A stretch of DNA of 64,000 nucleotides from Candidatus Uhrbacteria bacterium RIFCSPLOWO2_01_FULL_47_17. Lineage in GTDB: Bacteria; Patescibacteriota; Patescibacteriia; UBA9934; GWF2-40-263. Under the pieces are notes generated by a model. It had not been told where the DNA came from, made no database searches, and worked only from the letters and a program-made list of their open reading frames with translations. Location: assembly GCA_001791305.1 (NCBI GenBank), contig MGEI01000005.1, forward strand, positions 404,208 through 468,207. Reading direction: 5' to 3'. Positions 3,684 to 39,818 of the stretch are shown in pieces (the stretch's first letter is position 1; each line of letters starts with the position of its first letter). The position numbers and the translations under genes were made by a program.

Positions 3684-3696
3684 AGCTTCCGGTGTG

Positions 3697-3718: not shown

Positions 3719-3727
3719 GTCGAAGGG

Positions 3728-6721: not shown

Positions 6722-6750
6722 ATAGGCGGGGTCTCTGACCCCGCTTTTTG
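6722..6750. repeat. Family-B palindrome ATAGGCGGGGTCtctgACCCCGC plus T-run (terminator of proS)
   Basis: The same element recurs at 22715, 26057 and 34038. Here it is followed by TTTTTG right after the proS stop. Confidence 0.6.
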
Positions 6751-6824
6751 TATTGACAAAATGCCGAAAATCGGGTAGTATTCGACCTCGTCTAAAAACG
6801 ATTTGGCGAGCGGGAGGAAGGAAT

Positions 6825-19372: not shown

Positions 19373-20257
19373 TCAAGCCGCTTGCGCGTCTGTGTTTGCG
19401 GCACGTTGCGGCTTAAAGAGAAAAAAATTTCGGACTTGTTTCACCTCGTCATCGATCCGAAAGTCGAATGTGTAGGGAATCGTCATTTGACAAGGGTGAA
19501 ACACATATCCCGGATACTGCTCATGGATGCGGGCCATGCCTTCCTGAAGACGCCGTGTCCAATCATCTGCAGAATCTTGGGTGCTGACATTTTCCTGATG
19601 GCGAACACGTTCGATCTGAAACGTTTTGTCTGTTGGATTTGCTTGTTTCACTTGGAGACAAGTCACTGCTTCGTTTTTTTCGCTGAAGACGAACAGATCA
19701 ATTCCAAGCATATATGATTCATAGACGCTTGGTAAATACATCCAGCACTCGTCGAGTTCTGAAATGATTTCGATGGTCTGTGCGCATGCGTGCGCGTAGT
19801 CGCAGCTCATGTTCCAGATGTTCGATCGGATCCCGGGCAGGGCGCCGATTTTGAGCACGCTCGGAATATCTTTCGGATCAAGATCCAAAAAGAGTTCAAC
19901 GAGTTTCTGCTTACACATGGCAACAAGAACGCTGTGAGATCTACGTTCATTGTCCGAGAATTGCGGGTGCATGAAGTGGAACGTCATGCGGTGCAAGATG
20001 ATCGCTTCAAACAGACATTTTTCCACTTCCGACAGCTGCTTTCTGAACGCGATGTATGTGGAGTCGAGCACGCGCTGAAAGAATGCGTTGTGTGTTTGCA
20101 CATGTCGTGTTTTCGAAAGCTCGGGCGCTTCCGGGAGATAGACAGGTTTGTTTTGCAAAAAGTCTTCCACACGACGCAAAATATCTGGCGTGAACATTTT
20201 GCTTCCGCGCACAAGACAGATTTCGTGATGAGTACGCAAGAATGTGTCGAGCATCAC
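19373..20257 (-). CDS. Hypothetical protein (294 aa; the start may instead be the internal Met at 20197)
   Basis: A long intact ORF with its own terminator. No family was recognised; a ThyX-like RHR..S..S.RY motif was looked for and is absent. Confidence 0.35.
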   Translation of the reverse strand: MMLDTFLRTHHEICLVRGSKMFTPDILRRVEDFLQNKPVYLPEAPELSKTRHVQTHNAFFQRVLDSTYIAFRKQLSEVEKCLFEAIILHRMTFHFMHPQFSDNERRSHSVLVAMCKQKLVELFLDLDPKDIPSVLKIGALPGIRSNIWNMSCDYAHACAQTIEIISELDECWMYLPSVYESYMLGIDLFVFSEKNEAVTCLQVKQANPTDKTFQIERVRHQENVSTQDSADDWTRRLQEGMARIHEQYPGYVFHPCQMTIPYTFDFRIDDEVKQVRNFFLFKPQRAANTDAQAA

Positions 20258-20365
20258 CTACCTCATGGAGATGGATATCCCATCTCATCTAAAAAGGACG
20301 ATATGGAAGACTACCAACAGAATCCGGTTGCGTCAAGCCTTTTTGTTCGATATGATCCTTTTACT

Positions 20366-23209
20366 ATGAGCTATAACCATCAGGAAATTGAAAAGAAATG
20401 GCAGGCCAAATGGGCGGCCAATCGAGCGGGTCATGTTGACGAGGCCGCGTCGAGAGACAACGCGCTCTATTATTTGATCATGTTTCCGTACCCATCTGGA
20501 TCTGGTTTGCACGTGGGACACGTGGAATCGCAAGCCGCGATCGATATTTTGGCTCGCATGGAACGCATGCGTGGAAAAAATGTGTTGTGTCCGATCGGAT
20601 ACGATGCCTTCGGTTTGCCCGCCGAGAATTATGCGATCAAGACGGGAGTACACCCTGCCGAGACCACAAAAAAAGCGATCGAGAATTTTCATAACCAAAT
20701 GCAATCGCTTGGTCTTTCGTTTGATTGGTCACGCGAAATTTCGACGGCTGATCCGGAATATTACAAATGGACGCAATGGTTATTTTTGTTGTTCTACAAA
20801 AACGGATTGGCGTACAGAAAAAAATCTCCCGTGAACTGGTGCGAAGGATGCCATACGGTTCTTGCAAACGAGCAGGTTGTCGCGGGAGCTTGTGAGCGTT
20901 GCGGGACGGTTGTTGTGCAAAAAGAGTTGGAGCAATGGTTTTTTCATATCACAAAATATGCAGATCGACTTCTTGCGGGATTGGATTCGATCGACTGGCC
21001 AGAGAAGATTAAGTCGATGCAACGCAACTGGATTGGGAAGAGTGTGGGGGCAGAGATAAACTTTTTAGTGATGAGTGATGAGGGATCAGGGATCAGTGAT
21101 CAGGCGAAAGATTCCCTCAAGTTTACACCGGAGCTAACCGAGTTAATTTATTCAGGAAAAAAGACCAACACGATTCGTTTGGAGAAAAAGAATTTGCAAG
21201 TTGGTGACACGGTTCGACTCATGACTCGATTGAGTGCAACAGAAACGCATTCATTCGCGTTTGCGAAAATTACGGGTGTTGATTTGATAAAGCTGAACGA
21301 CATCTCACTTGATCTCAAAGGACACGAAAGATATGAATCACGAGAAGCCATGTTAAAAAGTTATCAAGATTTTTATGGTGCAACTGTTTCGTTAGAAACA
21401 GAATTTGTTCTTTATCACTTTGCGAACGTTACGCCGCTCATTACCGTCTTCACCACACGCCCAGACACACTCTTCGGCGCAACCTATCTCGTTCTCGCGC
21501 CCGAACACGCACTCGTCGATCAGATCGTCACAGACGAACATCGATCCGAGATCGACACGTATCGAATCGCTGCATCAAAAAAGTCTGTGCTTGAACGAAC
21601 GGAATTACAAAAAGAAAAGACGGGAGTCTTCACAGGTGCCTATGCAATCAATCCGGCAAATGGAGAACAGATTCCAGTCTGGATCGCGGATTATGTGATC
21701 ACAACTTACGGAACAGGAGCGATTATGGCGGTACCCGCACACGATGCGCGCGATTTTGAGTTTGCAAAGAAATATGAGTTGCCAATCAAAGTTGTCGTGA
21801 AGCCGGCCGTGCTGCAAACGCTCATGTCCGAGACTCTCGCAGTCTCTCACGGTGCACAGTCTTCCGTCGAGATCGTCTCGGATTGTTTTACAGAACAAGG
21901 AATTGCGATCAACTCCGCGTTTCTCGATGGCCTCTCGACTGCGGACGCAAAACAAAAGATGATTGCTTGGCTCGAAGAAAAACATATTGGAAATGCAAAA
22001 ACGACTTTTCGTCTCCGTGACTGGCTTGTTTCTCGCCAGCGATACTGGGGAGCGCCGATCCCGATTATTTGGTGTGAAAATTGCGGTGCGCAGCCGGTTG
22101 AGGAAGCACAGCTTCCTGTCGAACTTCCAACCGACGTCGATTTCTCCGCCATAGGCGGATCCGCCTCCGGCGGAAAACCAACAGGTGAATCACCGCTCGT
22201 CGATTCAAACACATTTCACAATGTGAAATGTCCGACGTGCGGAAAAGCCGCGCGTCGCGAATCCGACACGATGGACACGTTCGTCGATTCGTCCTGGTAC
22301 TATCTTCGCTACACAGATCCGCACAATACGAATGCGTTCGCGGACAAATCAAAAATTGATTATTGGTGCCCGGTCGACCTGTATCTCGGCGGTGCAGAAC
22401 ATGCTGTGATGCATTTGTTGTACGCGCGATTTTTTGCGTACGCGCTTCACGATCTGGGCTATCTTGGCTTCGAAGAGCCATTCTTGAAACTCAAAAATCA
22501 AGGTCTCATTCTTGGTCCGGACGGCGACAAGATGTCAAAATCAAAAGGGAACGTGGTGAACCCGGACGAGATGGTTTCCGAATATGGCGCGGACGCACTT
22601 CGTTTGTATGAAATGTTCATGGGCCCACTCGAAGACGCAAAGCCGTGGGATACGAAAGGCGTAGTCGGCGTTCGTCGTTTTCTCGATAAGGTTCACAATT
22701 TGTGCATTCGCGTTATAGGCGGGGTCCCCAGACCCCGCGACGATGCGCATACGAAATTGATTCATAAATCCATCAAAAAAATCACGTCCGATCTCGAAGA
22801 ATTAAAATTCAACACAGCCATCTCTCAGCTCATGATTGTTGTGAATGAATTCTCGAGCGCGTCTTCGATCAACAAAGAAACGTTCGAAACGTTTTTGAAA
22901 CTCCTCGCGCCTCTCGCACCACACCTCGCCGAGGAACTGTGGGAGAAGCTTGGACACACGACGTCGATCTTTGCAGAGTCATGGCCTGTGTTCGATTCAA
23001 CACTCATCGTCGACGATGTGGTCGACATGGGTGTTCAAGTAAATGGAAAAGTTCGCGGGACGATCTCGCTTGCACCAAGTGCGGACGAGGCCACGGCAAA
23101 AGAACTCGCGTTTGCAAATGTGAATGTGATGAAATGGATTGATGGCAAAGAGATTATGAAGATTGTGTATGTGCCAGGAAAGATTTTTAACATTGTTGTA
23201 AAGGAATAG
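20366..23209 (+). CDS. leuS: Leucyl-tRNA synthetase with an inserted ASCH-like domain
   Basis: Starts MSYNHQEIEKKWQ, with PYPSGSGLHVGHV (the HIGH motif), the TTRPDTLFGATYLVLAPEH editing domain and KMSKS. A ~115-aa insertion (21067..21420) sits between the catalytic and editing regions. A family-B repeat lies in frame at 22715..22742. Confidence 0.9.
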   Translation: MSYNHQEIEKKWQAKWAANRAGHVDEAASRDNALYYLIMFPYPSGSGLHVGHVESQAAIDILARMERMRGKNVLCPIGYDAFGLPAENYAIKTGVHPAETTKKAIENFHNQMQSLGLSFDWSREISTADPEYYKWTQWLFLLFYKNGLAYRKKSPVNWCEGCHTVLANEQVVAGACERCGTVVVQKELEQWFFHITKYADRLLAGLDSIDWPEKIKSMQRNWIGKSVGAEINFLVMSDEGSGISDQAKDSLKFTPELTELIYSGKKTNTIRLEKKNLQVGDTVRLMTRLSATETHSFAFAKITGVDLIKLNDISLDLKGHERYESREAMLKSYQDFYGATVSLETEFVLYHFANVTPLITVFTTRPDTLFGATYLVLAPEHALVDQIVTDEHRSEIDTYRIAASKKSVLERTELQKEKTGVFTGAYAINPANGEQIPVWIADYVITTYGTGAIMAVPAHDARDFEFAKKYELPIKVVVKPAVLQTLMSETLAVSHGAQSSVEIVSDCFTEQGIAINSAFLDGLSTADAKQKMIAWLEEKHIGNAKTTFRLRDWLVSRQRYWGAPIPIIWCENCGAQPVEEAQLPVELPTDVDFSAIGGSASGGKPTGESPLVDSNTFHNVKCPTCGKAARRESDTMDTFVDSSWYYLRYTDPHNTNAFADKSKIDYWCPVDLYLGGAEHAVMHLLYARFFAYALHDLGYLGFEEPFLKLKNQGLILGPDGDKMSKSKGNVVNPDEMVSEYGADALRLYEMFMGPLEDAKPWDTKGVVGVRRFLDKVHNLCIRVIGGVPRPRDDAHTKLIHKSIKKITSDLEELKFNTAISQLMIVVNEFSSASSINKETFETFLKLLAPLAPHLAEELWEKLGHTTSIFAESWPVFDSTLIVDDVVDMGVQVNGKVRGTISLAPSADEATAKELAFANVNVMKWIDGKEIMKIVYVPGKIFNIVVKE
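22715..22742. repeat. Family-B palindrome ATAGGCGGGGTCCCCAGACCCCGCGACGA inside leuS (in frame, encoding IGGVPRPRDD)
   Basis: 27 of 29 nt are identical to the intergenic copy at 34038..34069. The same core occurs at 6722 and 26057. Confidence 0.7.
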
Positions 23210-24523: not shown

Positions 24524-26036
24524 AAAGATCACAACATCGCCATCAAGAACATTCGCCCTTCTCGCGGCGATGTTTTGTTTCGGCATCCTCGTAGGTCCAC
24601 TCGCGATCGGCATCTCGACGTCGGTCTTCGGCGTGCTCCTCGCGATCTGTCTCCTGAGCTTCTCATTCATAGCCCCCTCTCCCTTCGAGGGAGAGGGCGG
24701 GGGGAGAGGGGTCACAAGTGCATCTTCTCGAAACACATTCCGCATCTTATGCCTTGCTCTCTTCTTCCTCGTCTTGGGATTATTTTGCTACCAACAAAGT
24801 GAAATTCCAAAAAACATTCCCACGGTTCGTGACTTCACCGGTTCTCAGATCCGCATCGAAGGTGATGTGATCGCCGAGTCATCCATCAAAACAAAATCAC
24901 AACAAGTGACAATTGGTCGCGTGAAAGTTGCTGACGTGCCCGTATTCGGAAACGTGCTCGTAACTGTCTTGAGGGAACAGTCGATCGCATACGGCGATCA
25001 CCTCGTCTTCTCTTGCTCCATGCAAATTCCACGACCATTCAGTGGATTCGCGTATGATCGCTTCCTCCAAGCAAAGGGAACCTTTGCGCTTTGTCGCTTT
25101 CCGCACGATCTCGAACGCGCGCCCTCGAATGCGTTCTCGCTTGTTGCTTCGATCCTCACATTCAAACGAGACGTTGTCTCAACCATGAAACACGTCTTTC
25201 CCGAACCGCATGCTTCGTTCCTCTTTGGTCTCGTCTTCGGAGGAAATGTTGGTCTTGAGCGAACGATCCAAGACGAGTTTCGAGAAACCGGCATGTCACA
25301 CATCCTCGCCGCCTCCGGTTTCAATGTCTCGCTTTTCACCTTCGTCTTCTTCGGCTGGATCGTTCAGCACCTCGGCCGTAAACGCGGCGCGATCGCAACC
25401 GCAATTTTGCTCGCTGTGTATGTGATCATGGCCGGCGCAACCGCCGCCGTGGTTCGCGCCGCAATCTTCGGAGGTGTTCTCCTTATCGGTTCCATGATCG
25501 GGCGACGCGCGTCGATCGTGAATACGCTTCTGCTCACCGCATCCGTCATGTTGTTTTACAATCCGCGTTGGCTCCTCGACGACGTTGGTTTTCAACTCTC
25601 GTTCGTCGCCTTCGCCGCAATCATTTTCATCGCGCCGCGTCTCGAAGAAAAACTCGAGTTCGTTCCCGAACACATCGGCATCCGCAACGCCCTCGCCGGT
25701 TCACTCTCTGCAATTTTTCTCACGCTTCCCATCATCCTCTGGCAGTTCGGCTCGATCTCGCTTGTCGCCCCATTCGCAAACGTTTTCGTGCTCCCACTCG
25801 TTCCATTCCTCATGTTCTACACAATCGCGATTCTGCCGATCGCCTGGCTTTCGACTTCCATCGGACAACTCATCGCTCTGCCGGCGCTCTTCGGATCGAA
25901 ATACATTCTCGCGATAGTCTCGATATTCGCCTCGCCAACATTCGCCTCCGTTTCCGTTCCGTTCGCGCAGACAGCCGCGGTCATCGTTGTGATTGGGCTC
26001 GCCATCGGATCCGTTGTCTTTTTTCGACGGGCGTGA
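24504..26036 (+). CDS. ComEC/Rec2-like membrane protein (DUF4131 plus competence domain)
   Basis: FGLVFGGNVGLERTIQDEFRETGMSHILAASGFNVSLF, the ComEC core, and multiple TM helices. An in-frame family-A repeat lies at 24672..24715. The start was taken at an internal Met because the long ORF overlaps the end of ugd. Confidence 0.6.
   Translation: MLVSVFKKITTSPSRTFALLAAMFCFGILVGPLAIGISTSVFGVLLAICLLSFSFIAPSPFEGEGGGRGVTSASSRNTFRILCLALFFLVLGLFCYQQSEIPKNIPTVRDFTGSQIRIEGDVIAESSIKTKSQQVTIGRVKVADVPVFGNVLVTVLREQSIAYGDHLVFSCSMQIPRPFSGFAYDRFLQAKGTFALCRFPHDLERAPSNAFSLVASILTFKRDVVSTMKHVFPEPHASFLFGLVFGGNVGLERTIQDEFRETGMSHILAASGFNVSLFTFVFFGWIVQHLGRKRGAIATAILLAVYVIMAGATAAVVRAAIFGGVLLIGSMIGRRASIVNTLLLTASVMLFYNPRWLLDDVGFQLSFVAFAAIIFIAPRLEEKLEFVPEHIGIRNALAGSLSAIFLTLPIILWQFGSISLVAPFANVFVLPLVPFLMFYTIAILPIAWLSTSIGQLIALPALFGSKYILAIVSIFASPTFASVSVPFAQTAAVIVVIGLAIGSVVFFRRA
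24672..24715. repeat. Family-A element in frame within the ComEC-like gene (encodes PSPFEGEGGGRGV)
   Basis: 43 of 44 nt are identical to the copy at 5152..5195. Confidence 0.75.
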
Positions 26037-26056
26037 TATCTTTGCGACAAATTCAT

Positions 26057-26080
26057 GCGGGGTCAGGGGACCCCGCCTAT
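26057..26080. repeat. Family-B palindrome (reverse orientation) GCGGGGTCaggGGACCCCGCCTAT between comEC and ndk
   Basis: Same core as 6722, 22715 and 34038. Confidence 0.6.
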
Positions 26081-29401: not shown

Positions 29402-29445
29402 GCCCCCTCTTCTCATCGAGGAGAGGGCGGGGGGAGAGGTGTCCC
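29402..29445. repeat. Family-A variant element immediately upstream of the GNAT start codon
   Basis: GCCCCCTCTTCTCATCGAGGAGAGGGCGGGGGGAGAGGTGTCCC, directly followed by the ATG. Confidence 0.65.
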
Positions 29446-30107: not shown

Positions 30108-32072
30108 TTAGAGGTTGACTTCTTCGATCCAAGCCGTGAGGACAACGTCCGCAGGAGCGCGCCAGTCACCGCGAGGCGAGAGCGACACGCTTGCGATCTT
30201 CGGGCAGTCCGGCAGGTTTTGCCGTTTGAATTGTGCGTTCGAGAATCGCTTCAGGAACGCGAGCAACCATTTCAGAATCGTGGCGCGATCGAATTCTCCC
30301 GCGAACGTGAGTTCGGCGAGCCAAGCAATTTTTCGCGGCGCGTATCCATTGCGGATCATGTGCCAGAGGAAAAAGTCGTGCAGGATGTACGGACCGATGA
30401 TGTCTTCGGTTAGTTGCTCGATTTCGCCAGCCTTCTTTGCTTTCACAAGTTCTGGCGAAACGGGCGTCGCGAGAACGTCGAGGATCGACGTGCGGATTTC
30501 CTTGAAGAGCTCGATGTCCGCCGCGTGGCGAACAAGGTATTTCACGAGCGTTTTCGGGATGTCGCCGTTTGGATTGTACATCGACTGTTGATCGCCGTTG
30601 TACGTGCACCAACCTTGCGCGATTTCCGAGAGATCGCCCGTGCCAATCACGAACCCGAGGTCCATGAGAATGTGCGTGCGTTCACGCGCTTGCGCGTTCT
30701 CACACTGCAGGCACGTCCAGCACGGCTCGTGGCCAATGCTGCGAAGATGAGTCGTCACATTCTTCACAATCGAAATGTCTTTCCAGGTGACGCCGGTTTG
30801 CTGAATGAGCTTCAGCGCATTTTTCTTTGTGCGCTTCGAAGTGCCAGCGCCCGGCATCGTCACCGCAAGGATGCCCTTGCGATCCCAACCGAGTTCGTCA
30901 AACGCGCGAAGTGTGAAGAGAAATGCGAGAAGCGAATCGAGTCCGCCCGAGATGCCGATGACAACCTGACGTTTCGTCACGTTTTCGACACTCAAGAGTT
31001 TTCGCTTGAGCGCGGTCACGGCGTGGGCGAAGATGTCTTCGCACCGTTCGGCGCGTAGCTTGTCATCCGACGGAACAAACGGGAGTTTGTTCAGGGGGAC
31101 GATCGGACGCACCGCGATCGCATCGTCGGACGATTTGATCGTGCACTCGATCCGATGGAACGTTTTCGGATCGACCATCGAGGTCTGACCGAAACTTCCG
31201 GACATGAATCGCTCGCGTTCGAGCTTCTCGACATCAATGTCTGTGATGAGGAGTTGCGATTCGAACTGAAACGGTTTGGAGCGAATCCGCAGATGGCCGT
31301 TTTCGGCAATCATCGCGTCGCCGTCAAAGATGACATCGCCGGACGATTCCCACGGACCAGACGAGACGTACAAGTACGCACTCATGCAGCGCGCCGACTG
31401 TTGCGTCACGAGGTCTTTGCGATACGCTCCCTTTCCAATCTCGCTGTTTGAAGCAGAGAGATTGGTGAGGATCGTCGCGCCCGCATTCGCCATGTGCGAA
31501 CTCGGAGGAATCGGCATCCAGACGTCTTCACAGATTTCCGTGCCGAGACAAAAGATGCGGTGCTTGCTCGAACCCGTGCCCACGAACACATCTATCACGT
31601 GATTCGTTCCAAACGGAACACGCTGTCCGCAGAGTTCCACTTCCGAAATAGTCGCTTCATACGATGGTCGAAACCATCGGCTTTCGTAGAAGTGCTTGTA
31701 GTTCGGAATGAACGTCTTTGGCGTCACACACAAGATCTTGCCCTTGTGGCAGGTCACTGCAACATTGAACAACTTTTGGTTCACGAGCAGTGGCATGCCG
31801 ACTTGGATGATCATGTCGATCGCGTCTGTTAGATTGAGAAACAACTGAAGTTCCTCGACGGCTTTCTTGTGGAGAAATGGTTGCAAGAACAAATCGCCGC
31901 AGGTGTAGCCGGTAAGCGAGAGTTCTGGAAACGTGAGCAACTGTACACGCTCATGTTCAGCATTCCCAACAAGTTTCATCATCTCAAACACATTCATACG
32001 TGGATTTGCAACGTGCACTCTCGGCACCGCAACCGCCACACGAACAAGACCAAACGTATTCTTGGGTTTCAT
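30108..32072 (-). CDS. nadE: Glutamine-dependent NAD+ synthetase (N-terminal CN-hydrolase domain plus C-terminal NAD synthetase)
   Basis: Nitrilase-type N-terminus (LLTFPELSLTGYTCGDLF), C-terminal PP-loop VIGISGGLDS and a GGAGG SD. The start was chosen at the internal Met, giving 654 aa. Confidence 0.85.
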   Translation of the reverse strand: MKPKNTFGLVRVAVAVPRVHVANPRMNVFEMMKLVGNAEHERVQLLTFPELSLTGYTCGDLFLQPFLHKKAVEELQLFLNLTDAIDMIIQVGMPLLVNQKLFNVAVTCHKGKILCVTPKTFIPNYKHFYESRWFRPSYEATISEVELCGQRVPFGTNHVIDVFVGTGSSKHRIFCLGTEICEDVWMPIPPSSHMANAGATILTNLSASNSEIGKGAYRKDLVTQQSARCMSAYLYVSSGPWESSGDVIFDGDAMIAENGHLRIRSKPFQFESQLLITDIDVEKLERERFMSGSFGQTSMVDPKTFHRIECTIKSSDDAIAVRPIVPLNKLPFVPSDDKLRAERCEDIFAHAVTALKRKLLSVENVTKRQVVIGISGGLDSLLAFLFTLRAFDELGWDRKGILAVTMPGAGTSKRTKKNALKLIQQTGVTWKDISIVKNVTTHLRSIGHEPCWTCLQCENAQARERTHILMDLGFVIGTGDLSEIAQGWCTYNGDQQSMYNPNGDIPKTLVKYLVRHAADIELFKEIRTSILDVLATPVSPELVKAKKAGEIEQLTEDIIGPYILHDFFLWHMIRNGYAPRKIAWLAELTFAGEFDRATILKWLLAFLKRFSNAQFKRQNLPDCPKIASVSLSPRGDWRAPADVVLTAWIEEVNL

Positions 32073-32162
32073 GTTGTCTCCTTCCTGATTTTCGCATACC
32101 GACACGATTGTCAGTGGGCGAAGAAAAGGGGCGATGTAAACATCGCCAGATCGTATCGTGTC

Positions 32163-32192
32163 CGTAGGGGAGGGTCGCGACCCTCCCCTACG
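32163..32192. repeat. Family-C palindrome CGTAGGGGAGGGTCGCGACCCTCCCCTACG between the radical SAM gene and nadE
   Basis: Paralog of 1703..1726 with the same AATGC flank. Confidence 0.6.
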
Positions 32193-32205
32193 AATGCGCA
32201 TCGCA

Positions 32206-33165
32206 TCAATACAGAATATCGCCGTTGTGATCCCAGTTGCGGTAACCGTGACCGTCGGGCTTGTGCACGATCGACTTCATGACCGTACCGCCGTTTGCTT
32301 CTTCGCAGCGCGCAAACGTGACGTTCACGCCATGCGACTGCTCGTCGAAAATCCCGCCGACCAGGAACACAGGCGTGCCCCACGGAAGCGGATTGCCGAT
32401 GCGGACGCCGTGTTCCTTGTTCATACCGAACTCGGTGAACGCGGTCTGGAGCGGCGCGATGTCGATCCAGTTCGTCGCATTCCAGTCGATCACTTCCTGC
32501 GTCGCGCGGCCAACCGATTCCGGTCGCCATACTTCGCGGATGACCACCATTTGCACGCCGAGGTTGCCGAGCACACGAATGTACTCGAGAATCCCAGCCG
32601 TATTTTTCACACCTGACTTGTTGATGACAAGCGACGCGCGAACCATGAGTCCAAAGCTTCGACAACGTTGAATCAACTCCGCCGGCGACTTCTTGATCAA
32701 CATGAGTTCACGATTCTGTTTGAAGTCGTGACTCGCGATCGAGAGCGTGATCATGGTGAGACCAGCATTGACGAGATCCGGAAGTAGATATTCTCTTGAA
32801 ATGGACGGTGGTAGATTGGGTTGGAACAAGTAACCGTTCGTATGCATGTCCACGAGCGGAAGATAACGACTGCATTCTTTCACAACACTCACGAGGTACT
32901 CAGCTTTTTCCTGACTTGGATCCGCACGCCCTGTGAGGATCGCGTGCGTTGCGCCCGTGCGTTCTGCAAATCGCAGACCGACACGAAGACGCTTCAAGCC
33001 ACAGAGCTTCACAAGCTTCTCGTCTTCAACCTCCGTCCCGGGCGTTGTGCGACTGATGCAAAACTTGCAACCAGCTGTGCAACGCTCGCGGGTAGAGAGC
33101 TGAATCGAAATGCTTTGTGCGCGCATCTGTCCAGAACCGTGAGCGATTTGCTGATGGTCTGCCAT
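32206..33165 (-). CDS. Radical SAM protein of unknown function
   Basis: CTAGCKFC (a Cx3Cx2C motif) near the N-terminus and an AAGGTGAAGGAG SD. Confidence 0.55.
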   Translation of the reverse strand: MADHQQIAHGSGQMRAQSISIQLSTRERCTAGCKFCISRTTPGTEVEDEKLVKLCGLKRLRVGLRFAERTGATHAILTGRADPSQEKAEYLVSVVKECSRYLPLVDMHTNGYLFQPNLPPSISREYLLPDLVNAGLTMITLSIASHDFKQNRELMLIKKSPAELIQRCRSFGLMVRASLVINKSGVKNTAGILEYIRVLGNLGVQMVVIREVWRPESVGRATQEVIDWNATNWIDIAPLQTAFTEFGMNKEHGVRIGNPLPWGTPVFLVGGIFDEQSHGVNVTFARCEEANGGTVMKSIVHKPDGHGYRNWDHNGDILY

Positions 33166-33248
33166 TGAATGAACTCCTTCACCTTCACACGTCGACGAAA
33201 TTGTCGGCGGGTGGAGAAAAGGATGATGCATGTGCATCATCAAGCCTG

Positions 33249-33962
33249 TTAATCCATTTCCACTCCATGTTCTTCGCCATCCATATCGTCATCACCGCGC
33301 TCATCTTCGAACGGATAGGCGGCATCGTCGCTAGAGACACCCTCGCAATCACAGGAGTGATCGATGACCTCGTTCAGACGAACGATCTTGCGTTCGAGGA
33401 GCTTCAAGCGAATGTATTGAATGAATGCGAGCACGCGCAGGTCGTCGCAGACGAACGTTTCGAGATCTTTTGTTGAGACCCAGTGACGGGTGATCCCTTC
33501 GTTCTCGCCTTCCGCGCTGCGAACGTCATCGTCCTTGCCCGTAAGTTGTTCGGGGCGTACCTCGGCATAGCAAAGGTATGCACGTTCGGTGAGGACACCA
33601 ATCGATAGCACCATGCTTTGGCCGAAGTTCAACATCTCGATGTCATCCTCCGTGAGGTCAACTCCGACTTCTTCCATCGCTTCTTTGATGAGAAGTTGTT
33701 TGGGCGAAAGTTTTACATCGAATCGACCCGCAAACGGCGTGACGAGCGTGCCGTGCGGATTCTCGTCTGACATCGCCGCAACGTGATCTTGCCTGATGAG
33801 CAAAATGCGTTCGTTGACGACATCGTGGAGAACTCCCGCAACAGAATCCGTTGTCCGGATGAATTCATTCAAGAATCGATTGCCGGGTTTTAGCCAGCGC
33901 TCCAGTATGACAAACCCTTTGTGAGGGATGTCGACCAGAACGGGAAGCGGTTTGTTTGCCAT
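33249..33962 (-). CDS. Nudix hydrolase (ADP-ribose/NAD-related pyrophosphatase candidate) with an acidic C-terminal tail
   Basis: Nudix box GRFDVKLSPKQLLIKEAMEEVGV. The SD is nearly identical to that of the radical SAM gene. Confidence 0.6.
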   Translation of the reverse strand: MANKPLPVLVDIPHKGFVILERWLKPGNRFLNEFIRTTDSVAGVLHDVVNERILLIRQDHVAAMSDENPHGTLVTPFAGRFDVKLSPKQLLIKEAMEEVGVDLTEDDIEMLNFGQSMVLSIGVLTERAYLCYAEVRPEQLTGKDDDVRSAEGENEGITRHWVSTKDLETFVCDDLRVLAFIQYIRLKLLERKIVRLNEVIDHSCDCEGVSSDDAAYPFEDERGDDDMDGEEHGVEMD

Positions 33963-34037
33963 CGTTGTTTCCTTCACCTTCACATGCCGACACAATTGTC
34001 AGCATGCGGAGAAAAGGGGTGATTGAATCACCCAGGT

Positions 34038-34069
34038 TATGGGCGGGGTCACCAGACCCCGCGACGAAT
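34038..34069. repeat. Family-B palindrome TATGGGCGGGGTCACCAGACCCCGCGACGAAT downstream of pncB
   Basis: Near-identical to the copy inside leuS. Confidence 0.65.
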
Positions 34070-35325
34070 CAGACCAAACACGTAACATTTACATGTTCGT
34101 ATCGATCGTAATTCGTCAGTCGTTTCACACGCAGTACAGCAGATGTGCGGCCGGTCAGTTTCTTTCGGTTGTCCGAGAGTTTGACGGTTGCGCGTCCCGA
34201 GATGTGAGTGAGCTTGCAGACAATCGAGAGTGCTTTCAGTCCGCGATTGTTTTCGTAATTCTGGAAACCCATGTTGTTGCCAAGGTTCGTGCCCCAGCCA
34301 AACGCGAGTTTGATGCGACCGCGGAAGTGCGCGTTCAATTGCACGATGAGTCGTGCGTCGAGACCGTCCGAGAAGACAATGAGTTTCGTCTTTGGATCGA
34401 TTCCGATCAACTCGTAAAACTTGATGATCTTTTCGCCGTATGCAAACGGGTCGCCGGAATCGTGACGTGTTCCGATCCACAGCTCGGCAAACGCCTTGAA
34501 GTGTTCGAGGAAGTAGTCCGAGCCGTACGTGTCCGAAAGCGCGATCGAAAGGATGGTGCCGTAGAGTGCAAACCATTGTTCGAGGAGCAGATCGTGCGAG
34601 TACATGTACCCGCGTGCGTCGTCCTCTTTGTGGTAAATGCCTTGATAGCCCATGTCCATTTCGTGGGCGATGGTGCCGATCGCTTCAATGCCGAGTTCAA
34701 GCGCGATCCAGATGTTGGATGTGCCCGCAAATTGTTTGCCCATTGTTGCAGCACAGGTTGCAACAACTTCGAACTGCCAATCATAGCTCCACCGACGACG
34801 CGTGCTGAAATCTGTGACGACGGCGTCCGATTCCATGACAATGTCGATGTTCTCGATGAGCTTGTCGCGGCCCGAGGCAATGACTTCTTCTTCCGTGAGC
34901 CCGAGCTCTTTGCACTTTGCGCGGAAGTAGATGCGATTGACCACGTTCATGATGAACGTTTCCCACATCGTGATTGCGGTCCACTTGCCCTGCGCGTAAA
35001 TGGCGAGCTTGCCTTTCACCACGCCGACATGAATGTCCGAGAGCTTGTAGCTGCGAAGCCACGTAAGGAACGCAGGCTGCAGTTGTTTGCCAAGGGTTGG
35101 ATGATTCCGAAGGCGTTCGATCATGCCCTGCGTCATCGTCATCTGCTTGATGTGGTCGAGTTCCGCTTGGACTTGTTCGACCGTCATGTAATTGAGCAGA
35201 TTCACATCTGTCCGATTTTTGAACGTGAAGCGTCCCTTGCGTTTGCGCTGATGGAGCCAGATGAACTGGAGCATCATCAGTTTGTACTTGTCTGTATCGA
35301 GTAAGTTCTTGACGATGTCGAACAT
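34069..35325 (-). CDS. pncB: Nicotinate phosphoribosyltransferase
   Basis: MFDIVKNLLDTDKYKLMMLQ (cf. pncB's DTDxYKLTM), ~418 aa, AGGAGG SD. Confidence 0.75.
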   Translation of the reverse strand: MFDIVKNLLDTDKYKLMMLQFIWLHQRKRKGRFTFKNRTDVNLLNYMTVEQVQAELDHIKQMTMTQGMIERLRNHPTLGKQLQPAFLTWLRSYKLSDIHVGVVKGKLAIYAQGKWTAITMWETFIMNVVNRIYFRAKCKELGLTEEEVIASGRDKLIENIDIVMESDAVVTDFSTRRRWSYDWQFEVVATCAATMGKQFAGTSNIWIALELGIEAIGTIAHEMDMGYQGIYHKEDDARGYMYSHDLLLEQWFALYGTILSIALSDTYGSDYFLEHFKAFAELWIGTRHDSGDPFAYGEKIIKFYELIGIDPKTKLIVFSDGLDARLIVQLNAHFRGRIKLAFGWGTNLGNNMGFQNYENNRGLKALSIVCKLTHISGRATVKLSDNRKKLTGRTSAVLRVKRLTNYDRYEHVNVTCLV

Positions 35326-35348
35326 CGTGCCTCCTGTTTCAACGCTTA

Positions 35349-35371
35349 CTCATGAACCCCGTGTTCATGAG
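35349..35371. promoter_or_regulatory. Inverted repeat CTCATGAAC-cccgt-GTTCATGAG in the pncB leader
   Basis: Perfect 9-bp arms, 24-46 nt upstream of the pncB start. Confidence 0.35.
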
Positions 35372-35506
35372 AGAAATGTGCCCCCGAATGCGTTCCACGA
35401 AGCCCCTCCTGCGAAGGAGGGGTTGGGGGAGGTTGCGCTCAGGAAAACGTTTCTTGAAGGAAAAATGTTCCCGGGGCTGAATGATTCAACCCCGAGACGA
35501 GATGAC

Positions 35507-36895
35507 TTACAATTCGCTGATGCGACGTTGCAAATCTGTTTCTGGAAAGAAGGCGAGTTCTGCGGTTGCGGTTGCGCTTCGACGAATATTCATCCAGTTT
35601 AGTTCGCCAAGCGCGACGCCGTCGCAGAAACCGCGCATAGGGCGCTTTTCTTGGTTCATGGCTTCGAATCGAATGCTTGTTTCGATCGGAAGCGGTTCGT
35701 TCTTCCAATGATGGGAGCACACGCAGCTTCCAACAAGTTGGAGCATTTGTGTGCCGGGGATGAGGCGTGATCCGCCCATGCGGTACGCATACCCCGTTGA
35801 TCCAGCCGCCGTTGAGACGAGCATGATGTCTGACATGATGGGATCGAATTTCACTTCGCCGTTCATGAGGACACGTGTCCAAATTGTTTGCCCGCTGAGG
35901 CGATCCACCCATGCATCGTTGAATGCGAGCATGTTGGATTGTGTGCCGTCAACAGATTCCGCCTCTATGTATAACAGCGATTCTGTGTACGTCTTGAGTT
36001 CGAGGTGTGATTGCAGTTGATCAACAATCTTCGTTTCGTCGAAGTCGTTGAGCAAGAATCCTTTCGTGCCGCGATTGAGTCCGAGGAAGGGAACATGGTC
36101 ACGCCACAGACGACGAATCGTATGAAGCATGAATCCATCGCCCCCAATCACGACAATGCAATTGTGTTCACCGATGGGTGTCTGAAACGCATCTGATAAT
36201 CTCTTGCCGATCGCAACCGTACTTTCATTGCGGTCGTTTGCGACAACAAGCGGTCGAAGTGTTTCTTGAAATTCCGCAGGACCTCGCATGATGCGTCCCG
36301 TGAATAACTGATGTCGTGCGATGTATTGACCAATCGCTGGTGACACAAGATCGTCGATTGACTGATGCCTGAAGATCCGTTCGCGAATTTCCGAACTGGA
36401 TCCACGGAGCGTCGGTTCGATGATCGTGTGGTGTGGCGGAAGATCTTCGGGCACGCATTCGATTCCATGGCGCATGTGCACGAGGAAGTGAAGTGTGTTC
36501 CAGACTTCCTGTCCGCAAAACCACGTTCGATGAATCTCGGACAATCCATGCGCGCCACCGGCAACGATGTCGGCGCCGATCACGTGACAGATTTCATGAT
36601 TCGGATACAGCGCACGATAGCGCTGATCTATGTCGAACGAACGCGTAAACACAGATTGCTCGAGATCTGTGAGATCAATTTCGACACGCGGGATGCGGCC
36701 GAACGCGAGGTCACAGAGTGCTGCACGAGACGCAAGTGAAAGATCGTTCGTCGTCTCTTTGTCCGGTCGCGGCCCGCACGGAAGAACGATGAGACGATCA
36801 TCCGGTCCGAGCTTACTCGCAAGTTTCTGAACAATCGCCTCATGATGCAATCCCGGAGGATTGAAACTGCCACCGTACAGAAAAATCTTTGGCAT
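35507..36895 (-). CDS. Bifunctional NaMN/NMN adenylyltransferase (NadD-like) - NAD kinase (NadK) fusion
   Basis: N-terminal IFLYGGSFNPPGLHHEAI and SSEIRERI; C-terminal VVIGGDGFMLHTIR (GGDG) and TAAGSTGYAYRMGG; 462 aa. Confidence 0.7.
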   Translation of the reverse strand: MPKIFLYGGSFNPPGLHHEAIVQKLASKLGPDDRLIVLPCGPRPDKETTNDLSLASRAALCDLAFGRIPRVEIDLTDLEQSVFTRSFDIDQRYRALYPNHEICHVIGADIVAGGAHGLSEIHRTWFCGQEVWNTLHFLVHMRHGIECVPEDLPPHHTIIEPTLRGSSSEIRERIFRHQSIDDLVSPAIGQYIARHQLFTGRIMRGPAEFQETLRPLVVANDRNESTVAIGKRLSDAFQTPIGEHNCIVVIGGDGFMLHTIRRLWRDHVPFLGLNRGTKGFLLNDFDETKIVDQLQSHLELKTYTESLLYIEAESVDGTQSNMLAFNDAWVDRLSGQTIWTRVLMNGEVKFDPIMSDIMLVSTAAGSTGYAYRMGGSRLIPGTQMLQLVGSCVCSHHWKNEPLPIETSIRFEAMNQEKRPMRGFCDGVALGELNWMNIRRSATATAELAFFPETDLQRRISEL

Positions 36896-36915
36896 CTTGT
36901 ACTCCTGTGTTCGAA

Positions 36916-36960
36916 GCCCCCTCTCCCTTCGAGGGAGAGGGCTGGGGAGAGGGTTTGTCC
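36916..36960. repeat. Family-A element upstream of the nadD-nadK start
   Basis: GCCCCCTCTCCCTTCGAGGGAGAGGGCTGGGGAGAGGGTTTGTCC. Confidence 0.65.
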
Positions 36961-37042
36961 TTGCATTAAGCGTCTCACCTCTTGAGGCGCTTAAGAAAAG
37001 GGCAGAGCTTTGGAAAACTCTGCAAGTTGGAAAAAGTTCGTG

Positions 37043-37813
37043 CTACTCTTGGATGAATCTTTCCGCGATCAGGAGTTTACGGAGGATATGCGGGCTCGAT
37101 TTGTCGACGACGTAGAGGTTCTCTCTTTTATCGGCGAACGTGCCAGCGACGAGTTCGGCGGCGATCTCGTCTGCCGCACGACCCGAGCCTTTCACCACAA
37201 TGGTGGGCCAACCTTTCTTGATCGAGCGCATGACTTCATCGCGCGTGATCGCACCGCCGTTCCAGGCAATGACGCCGGCGCGGTGGAAGCCGCCGTATTG
37301 CGTGAGCTGATCCATGAGTCCGAACGCGGCATCCAAGTCGCCATCCCAACCGAGCTTGCCTTCCGCCCCGTCTTGAACGAGGAGGATTGCGTTCATGCTC
37401 GGGTTTGGCGCGGTGCCGTAGTCGTCGAGTACGAGGCGAGACTCTTCGACGAGACGCAGAACGTCCGTGCGAGGAGTCGAACCGAGTGCGACACACTTTG
37501 GATTGCCCGCGGCAACAACGCCAGGAACATCTGTGACCATCGGATCGAGGTTGCCGTCTTTGTCGAATTGGCGCGTGCCACCCGACCAGATCATGCCCTC
37601 GAAACCCTTGAATGCGATCTGGAAAAAATCCATCATCGCTTTCTTATCATCGGCATTCATCCCTTTGCATCCGCCGCTGATGCGAATGCAGACTTTACGC
37701 GCCGCACGCGTTGCCATGAGGGCGAACGTTGCGGGGAGTTGAGCTCCCTTGTCTTGAATGATCAGAACAGTCCTGCCGTCCTGACCAGTTACCGTTTTTG
37801 CGGACATGAACAC
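37043..37813 (-). CDS. SLOG/LOG-like Rossmann-fold protein, paralog 1
   Basis: RISGGCKGM..., WSGGTRQFD..., WNGGAITRDEV... and VVKGSGRAADEI parallel the LOG motifs GGG.G.M / PGG.GT.EE. Confidence 0.4.
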   Translation of the reverse strand: MFMSAKTVTGQDGRTVLIIQDKGAQLPATFALMATRAARKVCIRISGGCKGMNADDKKAMMDFFQIAFKGFEGMIWSGGTRQFDKDGNLDPMVTDVPGVVAAGNPKCVALGSTPRTDVLRLVEESRLVLDDYGTAPNPSMNAILLVQDGAEGKLGWDGDLDAAFGLMDQLTQYGGFHRAGVIAWNGGAITRDEVMRSIKKGWPTIVVKGSGRAADEIAAELVAGTFADKRENLYVVDKSSPHILRKLLIAERFIQE

Positions 37814-37858
37814 CTTCGCACTTCCTAATTTTCCACACCCATGATTTCACGGACGCAG

Positions 37859-38605
37859 TTACTCCGGGGGAAGCATCCCGAAGGAAATGAGATGTTGGCG
37901 AATGTCGCGCGAATCTTTTTCGGCGACACGAACGTTTGGATGTGCTTCGAGAAACGCATTGTTGCTCGCGTACTCATCCGCCTTGCGACCACTTCTTCGT
38001 ATGAGGAGGACGGGCCAACCACGTTTTGCGGTTGCGAGGATTTCGCGTTCCGTCACGCCACCGCCGTTGTAGACGATGAGCAATGATTTGAATTCCGCGA
38101 ACTCGCGCAGGTCTTTCGTGATCTGCAAGCACTCTTCGAACTCCGCGTCCCAAATGGCCGGTTGATCCGGCGACACTTGAACGAGCAGGCACATATCTTG
38201 GTTCGGATGAATGATGGTGCGATAGGTATCCGCATCACTCTCCGAAACCACGAGTCCGTGTTCCGTGATTTTGATCTCCGACGTCCTCGGCACAACGCCG
38301 AGTGACACCATGTTTGGACACACGTCGCGAATGTGCGACGGAATCTCGGTGATCCCAGGCACAATCTGCGACACGTCTTGTTTCTGAATCATGCGCGTGC
38401 CACCAAAGAGCATGGCGCCTGCAAATCCAGCGAATGCATCTGCGAAGAGCGAAAGAAAATCCCGCGCATCCTCGGCGGACATGTATCCACATCCGCCCGT
38501 GAGTCGTACAACAACTCGATTGCGAGCGGTCGTGAGTCTCAGAGCGATCTTTACTGACCGGTCTCCTTGATTCTTCACGAACAAGGAGGGAATGATGTGT
38601 GACAT
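37859..38605 (-). CDS. SLOG/LOG-like Rossmann-fold protein, paralog 2
   Basis: RLTGGCGYMSAED, LFGGTRMIQ, YNGGGVTEREI and LLIRRSGRKADEY share their motif order with paralog 1 (37043..37813). Confidence 0.4.
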   Translation of the reverse strand: MSHIIPSLFVKNQGDRSVKIALRLTTARNRVVVRLTGGCGYMSAEDARDFLSLFADAFAGFAGAMLFGGTRMIQKQDVSQIVPGITEIPSHIRDVCPNMVSLGVVPRTSEIKITEHGLVVSESDADTYRTIIHPNQDMCLLVQVSPDQPAIWDAEFEECLQITKDLREFAEFKSLLIVYNGGGVTEREILATAKRGWPVLLIRRSGRKADEYASNNAFLEAHPNVRVAEKDSRDIRQHLISFGMLPPE

Positions 38606-39760: not shown

Positions 39761-39818
39761 ACCCAATAAAAACGCACCAATCTTTCGATTTGGTGCGTTT
39801 TGTTCCGTTGACTTTTCG

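What the first reader, a model, noticed from the sequence alone, without database searches (positions are those of the whole stretch)
22715..22742. Family-B palindrome (ATAGGCGGGGTC-N4-GACCCCGC) present both intergenically and in frame inside leuS
Copies lie at 6722 (proS terminator), 26057 (upstream of ndk, reverse orientation), 34038 (after pncB) and 22715 inside leuS, where it encodes IGGVPRPRDD. The leuS and pncB copies share 27 of 29 nt including the 3' tail CGCGACGA. One element therefore serves as a terminator-like hairpin between genes and also invades a coding region.
Basis: seen in the sequence. Interest (0 to 1): 0.6.

Follow-up and report, generated by a model that had tools for sequence, protein, structure and literature searches.

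The report
REP hairpin translated inside leuS
A 24-base GC-rich hairpin repeat of an ultra-small groundwater bacterium (Candidatus Uhrbacteria) sits between genes and also in frame inside the essential leucyl-tRNA synthetase gene; in related genomes the same repeat flanks a REP-associated transposase gene, so it is a mobile "extragenic" palindrome that has also colonised coding DNA.

Summary
AT[A/G]G-GCGGGGTC-loop-GACCCCGC occurs four times in the window, with none expected by chance, and the 8-mer arm never occurs alone. The copies lie 8 nt after proS (followed by a T-run, terminator-like), between comEC and ndk, 6 nt after pncB, and in frame in leuS as IGGVPRPR.

The leuS copy is exactly 8 codons replacing 4 ancestral codons. 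It lies in a hypervariable loop between two helices of the anticodon-binding domain. It is fixed in this species and shared by two other Uhrbacteria lineages. Their synonymous sites are near saturation, yet the stem is unchanged.

The family is a REP of a REP/RAYT system. In three related genomes fetched only by the palindrome pattern, a REP-associated tyrosine transposase gene lies within about 25 nt of a copy. No RAYT was found in this window.

The same REP is also in frame in ligA, pheT, comEC, a clp ATPase gene, truB and the RAYT genes themselves. Other hairpin families occupy the same LeuRS loop in other lineages.

It is closest to E. coli REP/RAYT in mechanism and to Rickettsia palindromic elements in behaviour. 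I found no description for CPR bacteria. I rate it a moderately interesting new variant of a known kind.

The parts
22715..22738 (+). Family-B REP inside leuS: head ATAG, stem GCGGGGTC, loop CCCA, stem GACCCCGC. It is 8 codons reading IGGVPRPR, with the tail GACGA at 22739-22743 shared with the pncB copy.
   Evidence: The hairpin with its flanks folds at -23.6 kcal/mol, z = -4.1. Orthologous copies are in L001 and L002 and absent from L003 and L006.
20303..23209 (+). leuS (leucyl-tRNA synthetase). The start follows the NCBI protein P0122 (MEDYQQ...). The open frame extends upstream to 19790, and one gene caller took that as the start.
22694..22762 (+). Hypervariable LeuRS linker between RRFLDKV and HKSIKK. 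In the model it spans the C-terminal end of helix 763-782, the loop, and the N-terminal start of helix 794-811 of the anticodon-binding domain. The REP peptide is residues 784-791.
   Evidence: Linker length distribution, codon alignment, AlphaFold2 model secondary structure, alignment to T. thermophilus LeuRS 1H3N.
6722..6749 (+). Family-B REP 8 nt after the proS stop codon: ATAGGCGGGGTC-TCT-GACCCCGC followed by TTTTT. It is intrinsic-terminator-like, and a promoter-like site follows at 6753-6781.
   Evidence: (-20 kcal/mol, z = -4.9). The copy is conserved in other assemblies of the species, L151 and L152.
26054..26080 (-). Family-B REP between comEC (ends 26036) and ndk (starts 26093), with its head on the - strand. 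It is a 27-nt insert relative to empty orthologous spacers.
   Evidence: The empty sites in L002, L003 and L006 read CAAATT^AAC.
34039..34067 (+). Family-B REP (ATGGGCGGGGTC-ACCA-GACCCCGC-GACGA) 6 nt downstream of the stop codon of pncB, which is on the - strand at 34069-35325. No T-run follows on either strand.

Best explanation
Family B is a REP (repetitive extragenic palindrome) family of a REP/RAYT system in Candidatus Uhrbacteria. Each copy has a 4-nt head, AT[A/G]G, at the foot of an 8-bp GC-rich hairpin.

**Inferred mechanism.** By analogy with E. coli TnpA_REP, a HUH/tyrosine (Y1) transposase recognises the folded single-stranded hairpin plus its head, and cuts and rejoins DNA. This disperses copies without target-site duplication.

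**Fate of copies.** Most land between genes. There they behave as stable hairpins and, when a T-run follows, as intrinsic terminators, as at proS. Five of the six reading frames of the element are open. Its GC-rich codons give Gly, Pro, Arg and Ala, which favour loops. A copy that lands in frame in a surface loop can therefore be tolerated.

**The leuS copy.** It is such a case. Eight element codons replaced four codons of the loop between two helices of the anticodon-binding domain. The protein is made with IGGVPRPR in that loop.

**Shown:**
- The repeat family is real.
- The leuS copy is in frame, and leuS orthologs without it exist.
- The ndk copy has empty orthologous sites.
- The insertion lies in a loop of the model.
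- RAYT genes sit next to the same REP in related genomes.
- The same REP lies in frame in five other housekeeping genes.

**Inferred:** RAYT-mediated movement, that the leuS copy is merely tolerated rather than useful, and that a RAYT exists or once existed in this genome.
For: **The family is real.**
- 4 copies against 0 expected.
- The 8-mer arm never occurs outside the palindrome.
- 64 loci were found in genome contigs. At least 12 copies, counted from the listed hits, are in Uhrbacteria MAG JACPHX01. Several more are in other Uhrbacteria/Patescibacteria MAGs.

**Link to RAYT.** The loci were fetched by the palindrome pattern alone.
- ORFs in L063 and L060 match NCBIfam NF047646 'REP-associated tyrosine transposase' at 99 and 110 bits (cut-off 80). 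The ORF in L050 is truncated and scores 62 bits.
- They also match Pfam Y1_Tnp and, best in the PDB, 4ER8 TnpA_REP.
- Each lies within about 25 nt of a Family-B copy.
- In L063 the gene is bracketed by inverted copies.
- P0125 is annotated 'transposase [Candidatus Uhrbacteria bacterium]'.

**Other REP features.**
- A REPIN-like inverted doublet lies in L005 (z = -9.2).
- The conserved head parallels the GTAG of E. coli REPs, which is needed for binding and cleavage (PMC3479197).

**The leuS copy is an insertion.**
- The modal linker is 18 aa and here it is 22.
- P0010, P0012 and P0002 keep the ancestral-type linker.
- It lies in a loop between helices 763-782 and 794-811.

**The ndk copy is an insertion:** empty sites exist in three relatives.

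**The same REP lies in frame in other genes:** LigA, PheT, ComEC, a Clp ATPase and TruB, and inside RAYT ORFs.
Against: - **No RAYT in this genome's sampled DNA.** None is present in the 64-kb window or in 10 kb beyond its left end, so the link rests on related genomes.
- **Only single copies here.** All four window copies are singlets. In the REPIN model singlets are thought to be immobile remnants.
- **Variant head.** The head is ATAG/ATGG rather than GTAG.
- **Possible function.** The leuS stem is unchanged in three lineages whose four-fold sites are near saturation (P about 0.004). That is more than a neutral relic should show. It could mean function, gene conversion from other copies, or recent transfer.
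- **Phylogeny does not group the carriers.** The three hairpin-bearing LeuRS never form a clade (0 of 300 NJ bootstraps).
- **No biochemistry.** No transposition has been observed.
Confidence: 0.78

Rival explanations
1. The leuS hairpin is kept by selection for a function at the DNA or RNA level, not merely tolerated. Candidate functions are a translational pause between the catalytic and anticodon-binding domains, an RNase III or RNase Y processing site, a RAYT or gyrase binding site, or an internal transcription pause.
For: - The stem is identical in window, L001 and L002, although only 0.33 of four-fold sites are identical in all three. This gives P(5 of 5 stem sites) of about 0.004. The 21-nt segment falls in the top 1.3% most conserved windows of the gene, yet lies in its most variable protein region.
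- The only change between the orthologs is in the loop, CCCA to CCTA.
- The copy is fixed in all four LeuRS variants of the species.
- RNase III and RNase Y genes are in the window.
Against: - Close orthologs (P0002, P0010, P0012) do without it.
- Other lineages carry unrelated hairpins or a decayed one at the same place (L004, L005).
- No T-run follows, so it is not an intrinsic terminator.
- One variant, P0124, has a change that breaks a stem pair.
- Conservation could equally come from gene conversion by other copies or from recombination between lineages.
Confidence: 0.15
2. The family spreads without a dedicated transposase. It moves by hairpin-mediated template switching or gene conversion, as proposed for Rickettsia palindromic elements and organellar GC-rich palindromes. 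On this view the RAYT adjacency in relatives is incidental or applies only to those genomes.
For: - No RAYT was found in about 74 kb of this genome.
- Several unrelated hairpin families (A, C, GTCAT...ATGAC, TCCGCC-N3-GGCGGA) show the same intergenic-plus-in-frame behaviour.
- The leuS event is a replacement, 24 nt in and 12 nt out, rather than a clean insertion.
Against: - Three RAYT genes lie directly beside the same REP in loci that were retrieved by the REP pattern alone.
- One of them shows the classical inverted-REP bracket.
- The conserved asymmetric head matches what a RAYT-type enzyme needs.
Confidence: 0.15
3. The resemblance is chance or convergence. GC-rich terminator hairpins and a Gly/Pro/Arg-rich loop happen to share sequence.
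For: Similar stems (GGCGGGGTC...GACCCCGCC) also turn up singly in unrelated high-GC genomes.
Against: - Zero matches are expected in shuffles.
- The leuS and pncB copies share 30 of 32 nt including non-palindromic flanks.
- Copies cluster in particular MAGs.
- Empty orthologous sites exist.
Confidence: 0.01
4. The motif is a DNA-uptake-sequence-like signal. Such signals, as in Neisseria DUS or Haemophilus USS, often occur as inverted pairs forming terminators and also inside genes. This would fit the competence genes of these bacteria.
For: comEC lies next to one copy. DUS/USS are known to occur both as terminator pairs and in coding regions (own knowledge).
Against: The 8-mer half-site never occurs alone in 64 kb on either strand. 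Uptake sequences occur mostly as single copies. The RAYT association also points elsewhere.
Confidence: 0.02

Closest known systems
REP / REPIN sequences with RAYT (TnpA_REP) transposases of Escherichia coli and Pseudomonas (Nunvar 2010; Bertels & Rainey 2011, PMC3116915; Messing 2012, PMC3479197, PDB 4ER8)
   Same: - Short GC-rich hairpin with a conserved 4-nt head at its foot, present in many copies per genome.
- Mostly located between genes and often close to stop codons.
- A Y1/HUH transposase of the RAYT family lies beside or is bracketed by the same hairpins in related genomes.
- An inverted doublet (REPIN-like) exists in L005.
   Different: - The host is a CPR/Patescibacteria bacterium with a very small genome.
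- The head is ATAG/ATGG rather than GTAG, and the stem is perfect and only 8 bp.
- Copies are repeatedly found in frame inside essential genes and inside the RAYT gene itself, which contradicts 'extragenic'.
- No RAYT has been seen in this genome's sampled 74 kb.
Rickettsia palindromic elements, RPE (Ogata 2000 Science; Ogata 2002 Genome Res; summarised in PMC10969869)
   Same: Palindromic repeats inserted in frame into unrelated housekeeping genes, including aminoacyl-tRNA synthetases. They are translated and sit where the protein fold tolerates them. The hosts are reduced genomes of host-dependent bacteria.
   Different: RPEs are about 100-150 bp, encode 35-50 residues and have no known transposase. 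This element is 24 nt and 8 residues, and it belongs to a RAYT-linked family. There is no sequence relationship.
Terminator-like repeat families such as SPRITE of Streptococcus pneumoniae (listed in PMC10969869)
   Same: A dispersed repeat whose copies look like rho-independent terminators downstream of genes. The proS copy fits, as do many copies in other MAGs that are followed by TTTT.
   Different: Only one of the four window copies has a T-run. SPRITE is not reported with a RAYT or in frame in genes.
GC-rich palindromic clusters of yeast and other organellar genomes (own knowledge)
   Same: Short GC-rich hairpins spread through an AT-richer small genome and occasionally sit in frame in coding regions, as in var1.
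   Different: Those are organellar and have no transposase. Their spread is attributed to recombination or gene conversion.

Membership tests
REP / REPIN-RAYT system | Short palindromic hairpin repeated many times in a genome | tested here: met
   4 copies in 64 kb with 0 expected. At least 12 copies, counted from the listed hits, in MAG JACPHX01, and 9 loci in CAYHDY01. Hairpins fold at -17 to -24 kcal/mol.
REP / REPIN-RAYT system | Conserved asymmetric tetranucleotide at the 5' foot of the hairpin (GTAG in E. coli) | tested here: met
   AT[A/G]G precedes the stem in all four window copies. The genome contigs pattern itself required ATRG before the stem, so those loci cannot test head conservation. 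This is a variant of GTAG; Family A in the same window has GTAG. The requirement in E. coli is described in PMC3479197.
REP / REPIN-RAYT system | A RAYT (Y1/HUH transposase) gene flanked by the same REPs | tested here: met
   Met in related genomes. L063 has a REP upstream and two inverted REPs at the 3' end. L060 and L050 have a REP 14-22 nt upstream. NF047646 scores 99 and 110 bits against a cut-off of 80, and the best PDB hit is 4ER8.
REP / REPIN-RAYT system | A RAYT present in this very genome | not testable with these tools
   None in the window or in L151/L152. The rest of the genome could not be fetched, and the species is not among the genome-contig hits.
REP / REPIN-RAYT system | Extragenic location | tested here: not met
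   One of the four window copies is inside leuS. Further in-frame copies are in LigA, PheT, ComEC, Clp, TruB and RAYT ORFs.
REP / REPIN-RAYT system | Inverted doublets (REPINs) as the mobile unit | tested here: inconclusive
   One doublet in L005 folds into a long hairpin. All four window copies are singlets.
REP / REPIN-RAYT system | RAYT binds and cleaves its REP | not testable with these tools
   This needs biochemistry.
Rickettsia palindromic elements (RPE) | In-frame insertion in housekeeping genes at structurally permissive sites | tested here: met
   The leuS loop lies between two helices. The LigA insert lies in a loop and adds 7 aa relative to E. coli LigA. TruB inserts were compared with orthologs.
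Rickettsia palindromic elements (RPE) | Element of about 100-150 bp encoding a conserved 35-50 residue peptide | tested here: not met
   The element is 24 nt and 8 residues, and it is read in three different frames in different genes.
Intrinsic (rho-independent) terminator | GC-rich stem-loop followed directly by a T-run | tested here: inconclusive
   Met for the proS copy. Not met for the leuS, ndk and pncB copies.
MITE | Terminal inverted repeats with target-site duplication | tested here: not met
   No duplication appears when the filled ndk site is compared with the empty sites. The leuS event is a replacement.
DNA uptake sequence (DUS/USS) | A single oriented motif over-represented on its own | tested here: not met
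   The half-site never occurs alone.

The most novel reading that the evidence does not exclude
In CPR bacteria, REP-type hairpins are not only tolerated in genes but recurrently target the same few coding sites. Two observations point this way.

- At least four different hairpin families occupy the same inter-helix loop of LeuRS in different lineages.
- A second LeuRS site (DVDF|KPTG) carries a similar 10-residue hairpin-encoded insert in two distant orthologs.

The leuS REP keeps a perfect stem across lineages with saturated synonymous sites. It is shared by LeuRS sequences that do not form a clade. Together this would mean site-specific insertion or exchange, and possibly selection for an intragenic hairpin. 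REP/RAYT systems would then be a regular source of protein-loop evolution in the smallest bacterial genomes.
Probability: 0.2. Interest if true: 0.75.

Novelty: new variant of a known kind. Interest (0 to 1): 0.55.

Why it matters
REP/RAYT systems have been studied mainly in Proteobacteria. REPs are 'extragenic' by name, and RAYTs are viewed as domesticated single-copy transposases.

Here the same kind of system appears in an ultra-small, streamlined CPR genome. Its hairpins are translated inside essential genes, including leuS, ligA, pheT, truB and the transposase gene itself.

This links two phenomena that have been treated separately: REPs, and the protein-coding palindromes of Rickettsia.

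It also has practical consequences:
- It explains odd Gly/Pro/Arg-rich loop insertions in CPR proteins.
- It gives a concrete DNA substrate (ATAGGCGGGGTCCCCAGACCCCGC) and enzyme (P0125) for testing.
- It warns annotators that such peptides are repeat-derived.

I found no description of this in the searched literature. That is weak evidence of absence.

Tried and rejected
**Searches that gave little.**
- A protein search with the 61-aa linker segment, meant to find more hairpin-bearing LeuRS, returned only 2 candidates.
- A protein search with the Uhrbacteria RAYT returned only itself. Both results reflect word-index limits.
It gave no close orthologs. It served only to show another hairpin-like insert at the linker, in L078.
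- A look-up to extend the right end of the window failed because there was no exact product match.
- P0008 has no retrievable DNA.
- Rfam shows nothing at the copies, only two tRNAs in the window.
- Six literature searches for CPR plus palindromic, REPIN, RAYT or RPE terms found nothing relevant (REP/RAYT background).

**Ideas tested and rejected.**
- The DUS-like idea was rejected because half-sites never occur alone.
- A single ancestral insertion with a clean clade is not supported: monophyly appears in 0 of 300 bootstraps. However, the carriers share a derived downstream motif, H(T/V)KL(I/V)HK. The history therefore stays unresolved between a poorly resolved tree, recombination and repeated insertion.
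- My first Biopython bootstrap timed out.

**Caveats on methods.**
- The RAYT query came from my memory of E. coli YafM. It failed against Pfam at E <= 0.001. It was later validated by its match to the 4ER8 sequence and by the NCBIfam hits of its targets.
- MAGs titled 'uncultured Gammaproteobacteria' carry the same REP. I could not verify that label. One ComEC from them is 39% identical to Uhrbacteria ComEC.
Full report
**1. The observation**

The window comes from a CPR/Patescibacteria bacterium. Its LeuRS is identical to proteins named Candidatus Uhrbacteria bacterium RIFCSPHIGHO2_02_FULL_47_44 and relatives.

GCGGGGTC-N(0-12)-GACCCCGC occurs four times, with 0.00 expected in shuffles. Three copies have a 4-nt loop. 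The proS copy has a 3-nt loop. All four carry the head AT[A/G]G directly 5' of the stem.

| Copy | Coordinates | Position |
|---|---|---|
| proS | 6722-6744 (+) | 8 nt after the proS stop, followed by TTTTTG |
| leuS | 22715-22738 (+) | inside leuS, in frame |
| ndk | 26054-26080 (head on the - strand) | between comEC and ndk |
| pncB | 34039-34062 (+) | 6 nt after the stop of pncB, which is on the - strand |

- The flanking genes were confirmed by Pfam.
- The leuS and pncB copies share 27 of 29 nt, or 30 of 32 with the preceding GTT, including the non-palindromic tail GACGA.
- The 8-mer arm never occurs outside these palindromes on either strand. The hairpin is therefore the unit.
- The hairpins fold at -17 to -24 kcal/mol, with z between -3.2 and -4.9.
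- Only the proS copy scores as an intrinsic-terminator-like site.
- Nothing in Rfam overlaps the copies.

**2. The leuS copy is an insertion in a permissive loop**

The copy reads ATA GGC GGG GTC CCC AGA CCC CGC, which is IGGVPRPR.

- Among the closest 120 LeuRS, the stretch between RRFLDKx and xHKxIKK has a modal length of 18 residues. Here it is 22.
- Codon alignment shows that the eight element codons take the place of four ancestral codons. Those four read QGAP in P0010, and the position follows a G/A-D-x-x pattern in more distant relatives.
- In an AlphaFold2 model (mean pLDDT 83), the peptide is residues 784-791. It sits in the loop between helices 763-782 and 794-811 of the anticodon-binding domain.
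- The site aligns with a variable, longer stretch of T. thermophilus LeuRS (1H3N).
- The copy is present in all four sequence variants of the species' LeuRS cluster. One variant has Arg changed to Ser, which breaks a stem pair.

**3. Orthologs**

The same hairpin, in the same place, frame and orientation, is in two other lineages: L001 (P0005) and L002 (P0009). It is absent from L003 (P0002) and L006 (P0010).

- Four-fold sites between these genomes are only 42-52% identical, which is near saturation.
- Only 33% of four-fold sites are identical in all three carriers. Yet all five stem four-fold sites are identical, giving P of about 0.004.
- The only difference between the copies is in the loop, CCCA against CCTA.
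- The three carriers also share a derived downstream motif, H(T/V)KL(I/V)HK. Despite this they never form a clade (0 of 300 NJ bootstraps).

The history is therefore unresolved. It could be one insertion on a poorly resolved tree, a short recombination tract, or repeated insertion. The stem conservation is suggestive but not strong. It could reflect function, gene conversion from other copies, or recency.

**4. The ndk copy is also an insertion**

Orthologous comEC-ndk spacers in L002, L003 and L006 read CAAATT^AAC without the element. The window has 27 extra nucleotides at that point and no target duplication.

**5. What the family is**

An exact-pattern scan of one genome per species found 64 loci.

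- They are concentrated in a few MAGs. Uhrbacteria JACPHX01 has at least 12 copies, counted from the listed hits. Further copies are in CALRHL01, JAPLZK01, MGFD01 and JACPHT01.
- Patescibacteria JBBTZZ01 also carries copies, as do several MAGs titled 'uncultured Gammaproteobacteria'. I could not verify that label.
- Single, probably chance, hits occur in high-GC genomes.
- Many copies are followed by TTTT(G).

I then searched all fetched DNA with a RAYT query. This gave three strong hits, all in loci that had been fetched only because they contain the palindrome.

| Locus | RAYT ORF | Position of Family-B copies |
|---|---|---|
| L063 | 3660-4214 (-) | one copy just upstream; two inverted copies at its 3' end, read in frame as ...AGSGDPAYK |
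| L060 | 1826-2392 (-) | one copy 22 nt upstream |
| L050 | from 7524 (+) | one copy upstream; two further copies in frame inside the ORF |

- The anatomy is shown.
- The ORFs match NCBIfam NF047646 'REP-associated tyrosine transposase' above its cut-off: 99 and 110 bits against 80.
- They also match Pfam Y1_Tnp, and their best PDB hit is 4ER8, E. coli TnpA_REP.
- L005 holds an inverted doublet that folds into a long hairpin, like a REPIN.
- In E. coli the 5' GTAG head is required for RAYT binding and cleavage (PMC3479197). RAYTs are typically single-copy genes associated with REPs (PMC5581495).

Family B is therefore a REP family of a REP/RAYT system. No RAYT lies in the window or in 10 kb beyond its left end. 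For this genome the link is by homology of the repeat only.

**6. Coding invasion is general**

The same REP lies inside confirmed coding sequences in other genomes:

- NAD-dependent DNA ligase (L025). The insert adds 7 residues relative to E. coli LigA, in the loop before the EVRGEV motif.
- PheRS beta subunit (L031).
- ComEC (L032).
- A Clp ATPase (L067).
- TruB (L064). This gene also carries a second, unrelated 66-nt hairpin. Both inserts are absent from three Uhrbacteria TruB orthologs.

The element is read in three frames: IGGVPRPR, RRGPLTPP and, on the other strand, AGSGDPAY. Only one of the six frames contains a stop (TAG in the head).

The LeuRS linker itself carries other elements in other lineages:
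- An 85-nt GTCAT...ATGAC hairpin in L004.
- A decayed palindrome in L005.
- A palindromic AATTTCGAAATT run in L078.
- Peptides typical of further hairpin families in P0008, P0015, P0016, P0036, P0052 and P0055. These were judged by eye from protein sequence only.

These are shown. The GTCAT...ATGAC family is likewise both intergenic and intragenic.

**7. How it most likely works**

*Shown:*
- The family is a RAYT-linked REP.
- Copies appear at sites that are empty in relatives.
- The leuS copy is translated sequence in a surface loop.

*Inferred:*
- A RAYT recognises the folded single-stranded hairpin with its head and moves it without target duplication.
- Intergenic copies act as stable RNA/DNA hairpins, and as terminators where a T-run follows.
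- In-frame copies survive because the GC-rich codons give Gly, Pro, Arg and Ala, which suit loops.

The main rival is that the leuS hairpin is itself under selection; I give it about 0.15. A transposase-free spread by template switching or gene conversion cannot be excluded for this genome; I also give that about 0.15. Chance and uptake-signal readings are rejected.

**8. Comparison and novelty**

In mechanism the family matches REP/RAYT. It fails the 'extragenic' criterion. In behaviour it matches the Rickettsia palindromic elements (PMC10969869), but it is six times shorter and has a candidate transposase.

I found no paper linking REP, RAYT or RPE-like elements with CPR bacteria in the held library. 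That is weak evidence.

I rate it a new variant of a known kind, of moderate interest (0.55).

Noticed in passing
window 5153-5195 and 24673-24715; degenerate copy about 29405-29445: A third repeat family (C): two 100% identical 43-nt copies, CCCCCTCTCCCTTCGAGGGAGAGGGCGGGGGGAGAGGGGTCAC. Both are in frame in coding sequence, reading APSPFEGEGGGRGVT. One is in an AstE/AspA-like gene (4528-5427) and one is in comEC. A decayed copy is intergenic. ComEC orthologs have remnants (PPAKEGKGEV, PPSQGGVGGG) or nothing at that site.
   Followed up: partly
window 22145-22174 (inside leuS): A second clean in-frame insertion in leuS. It is 30 nt, TCCGCCATAGGCGGA TCCGCCTCCGGCGGA, formed of two tandem mini-hairpins, and reads SAIGGSASGG between DVDF and KPTGESPL. 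It is absent from 51 of 53 aligned orthologs. The distant P0031 has SGKAGSASGG at the same site.
   Followed up: partly
window 1700-1731 and 32163-32192: Family A palindrome with a GTAG head (GTAGGGGAGGGTC..GACCCTCCCCTAC). It resembles Family B in the TAGG-N-G-N-GGGTC core. The 32163 copy is a perfect 30-nt palindrome lying between a gene end and the probable nadE start.
   Followed up: partly
window about 21074-21434 (LeuRS residues about 237-356): This LeuRS carries an inserted ASCH domain (PF04266). P0002, P0003, P0004 and P0007 share it, while the hairpin-bearing P0005 and P0009 lack it. Part of it has low confidence in the model.
   Followed up: no
L004 12250-12334; L005 9796-9889; L011 1572-1665; L064 1917-1982: A long-hairpin family, GTCAT...ATGAC (66-94 nt). 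It lies in frame in leuS (L004) and truB (L064) and is intergenic in L005 and L011.
   Followed up: partly
L050 7840-7945; L060 2040-2095; L072 1335-1522: RAYT genes themselves carry REP-like hairpins in frame between the HUH motif and the catalytic tyrosine region.
   Followed up: partly
L151 12839-14240 (about 2-4 kb beyond the left end of the window, same species): A reverse transcriptase (RVT_1) next to a bAvd gene, which is the signature of a diversity-generating retroelement.
   Followed up: no
L012, L014, L015, L019, L021, L022, L024, L032, L036-L038, L040, L051-L053, L057, L060, L065, L067, L070: MAGs titled 'uncultured Gammaproteobacteria' carry the same REP family and a RAYT. Their ComEC is 39% identical to Uhrbacteria ComEC. 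Either the label is doubtful or the system crosses phyla.
   Followed up: partly
window 30108-40487: A NAD salvage and regulation cluster. It holds nadE (CN_hydrolase + NAD_synthase), pncB, a cytidylyltransferase/NAD-kinase fusion, two SLOG (LSDAT_prok) proteins, an isochorismatase-type gene (pncA-like) and NrtR.
   Followed up: no
window 19790-20302: The leuS reading frame stays open for 171 codons upstream of the NCBI start. One gene caller therefore produced a 1139-aa product (P0001, P0123) where others produced 968 aa.
   Followed up: no
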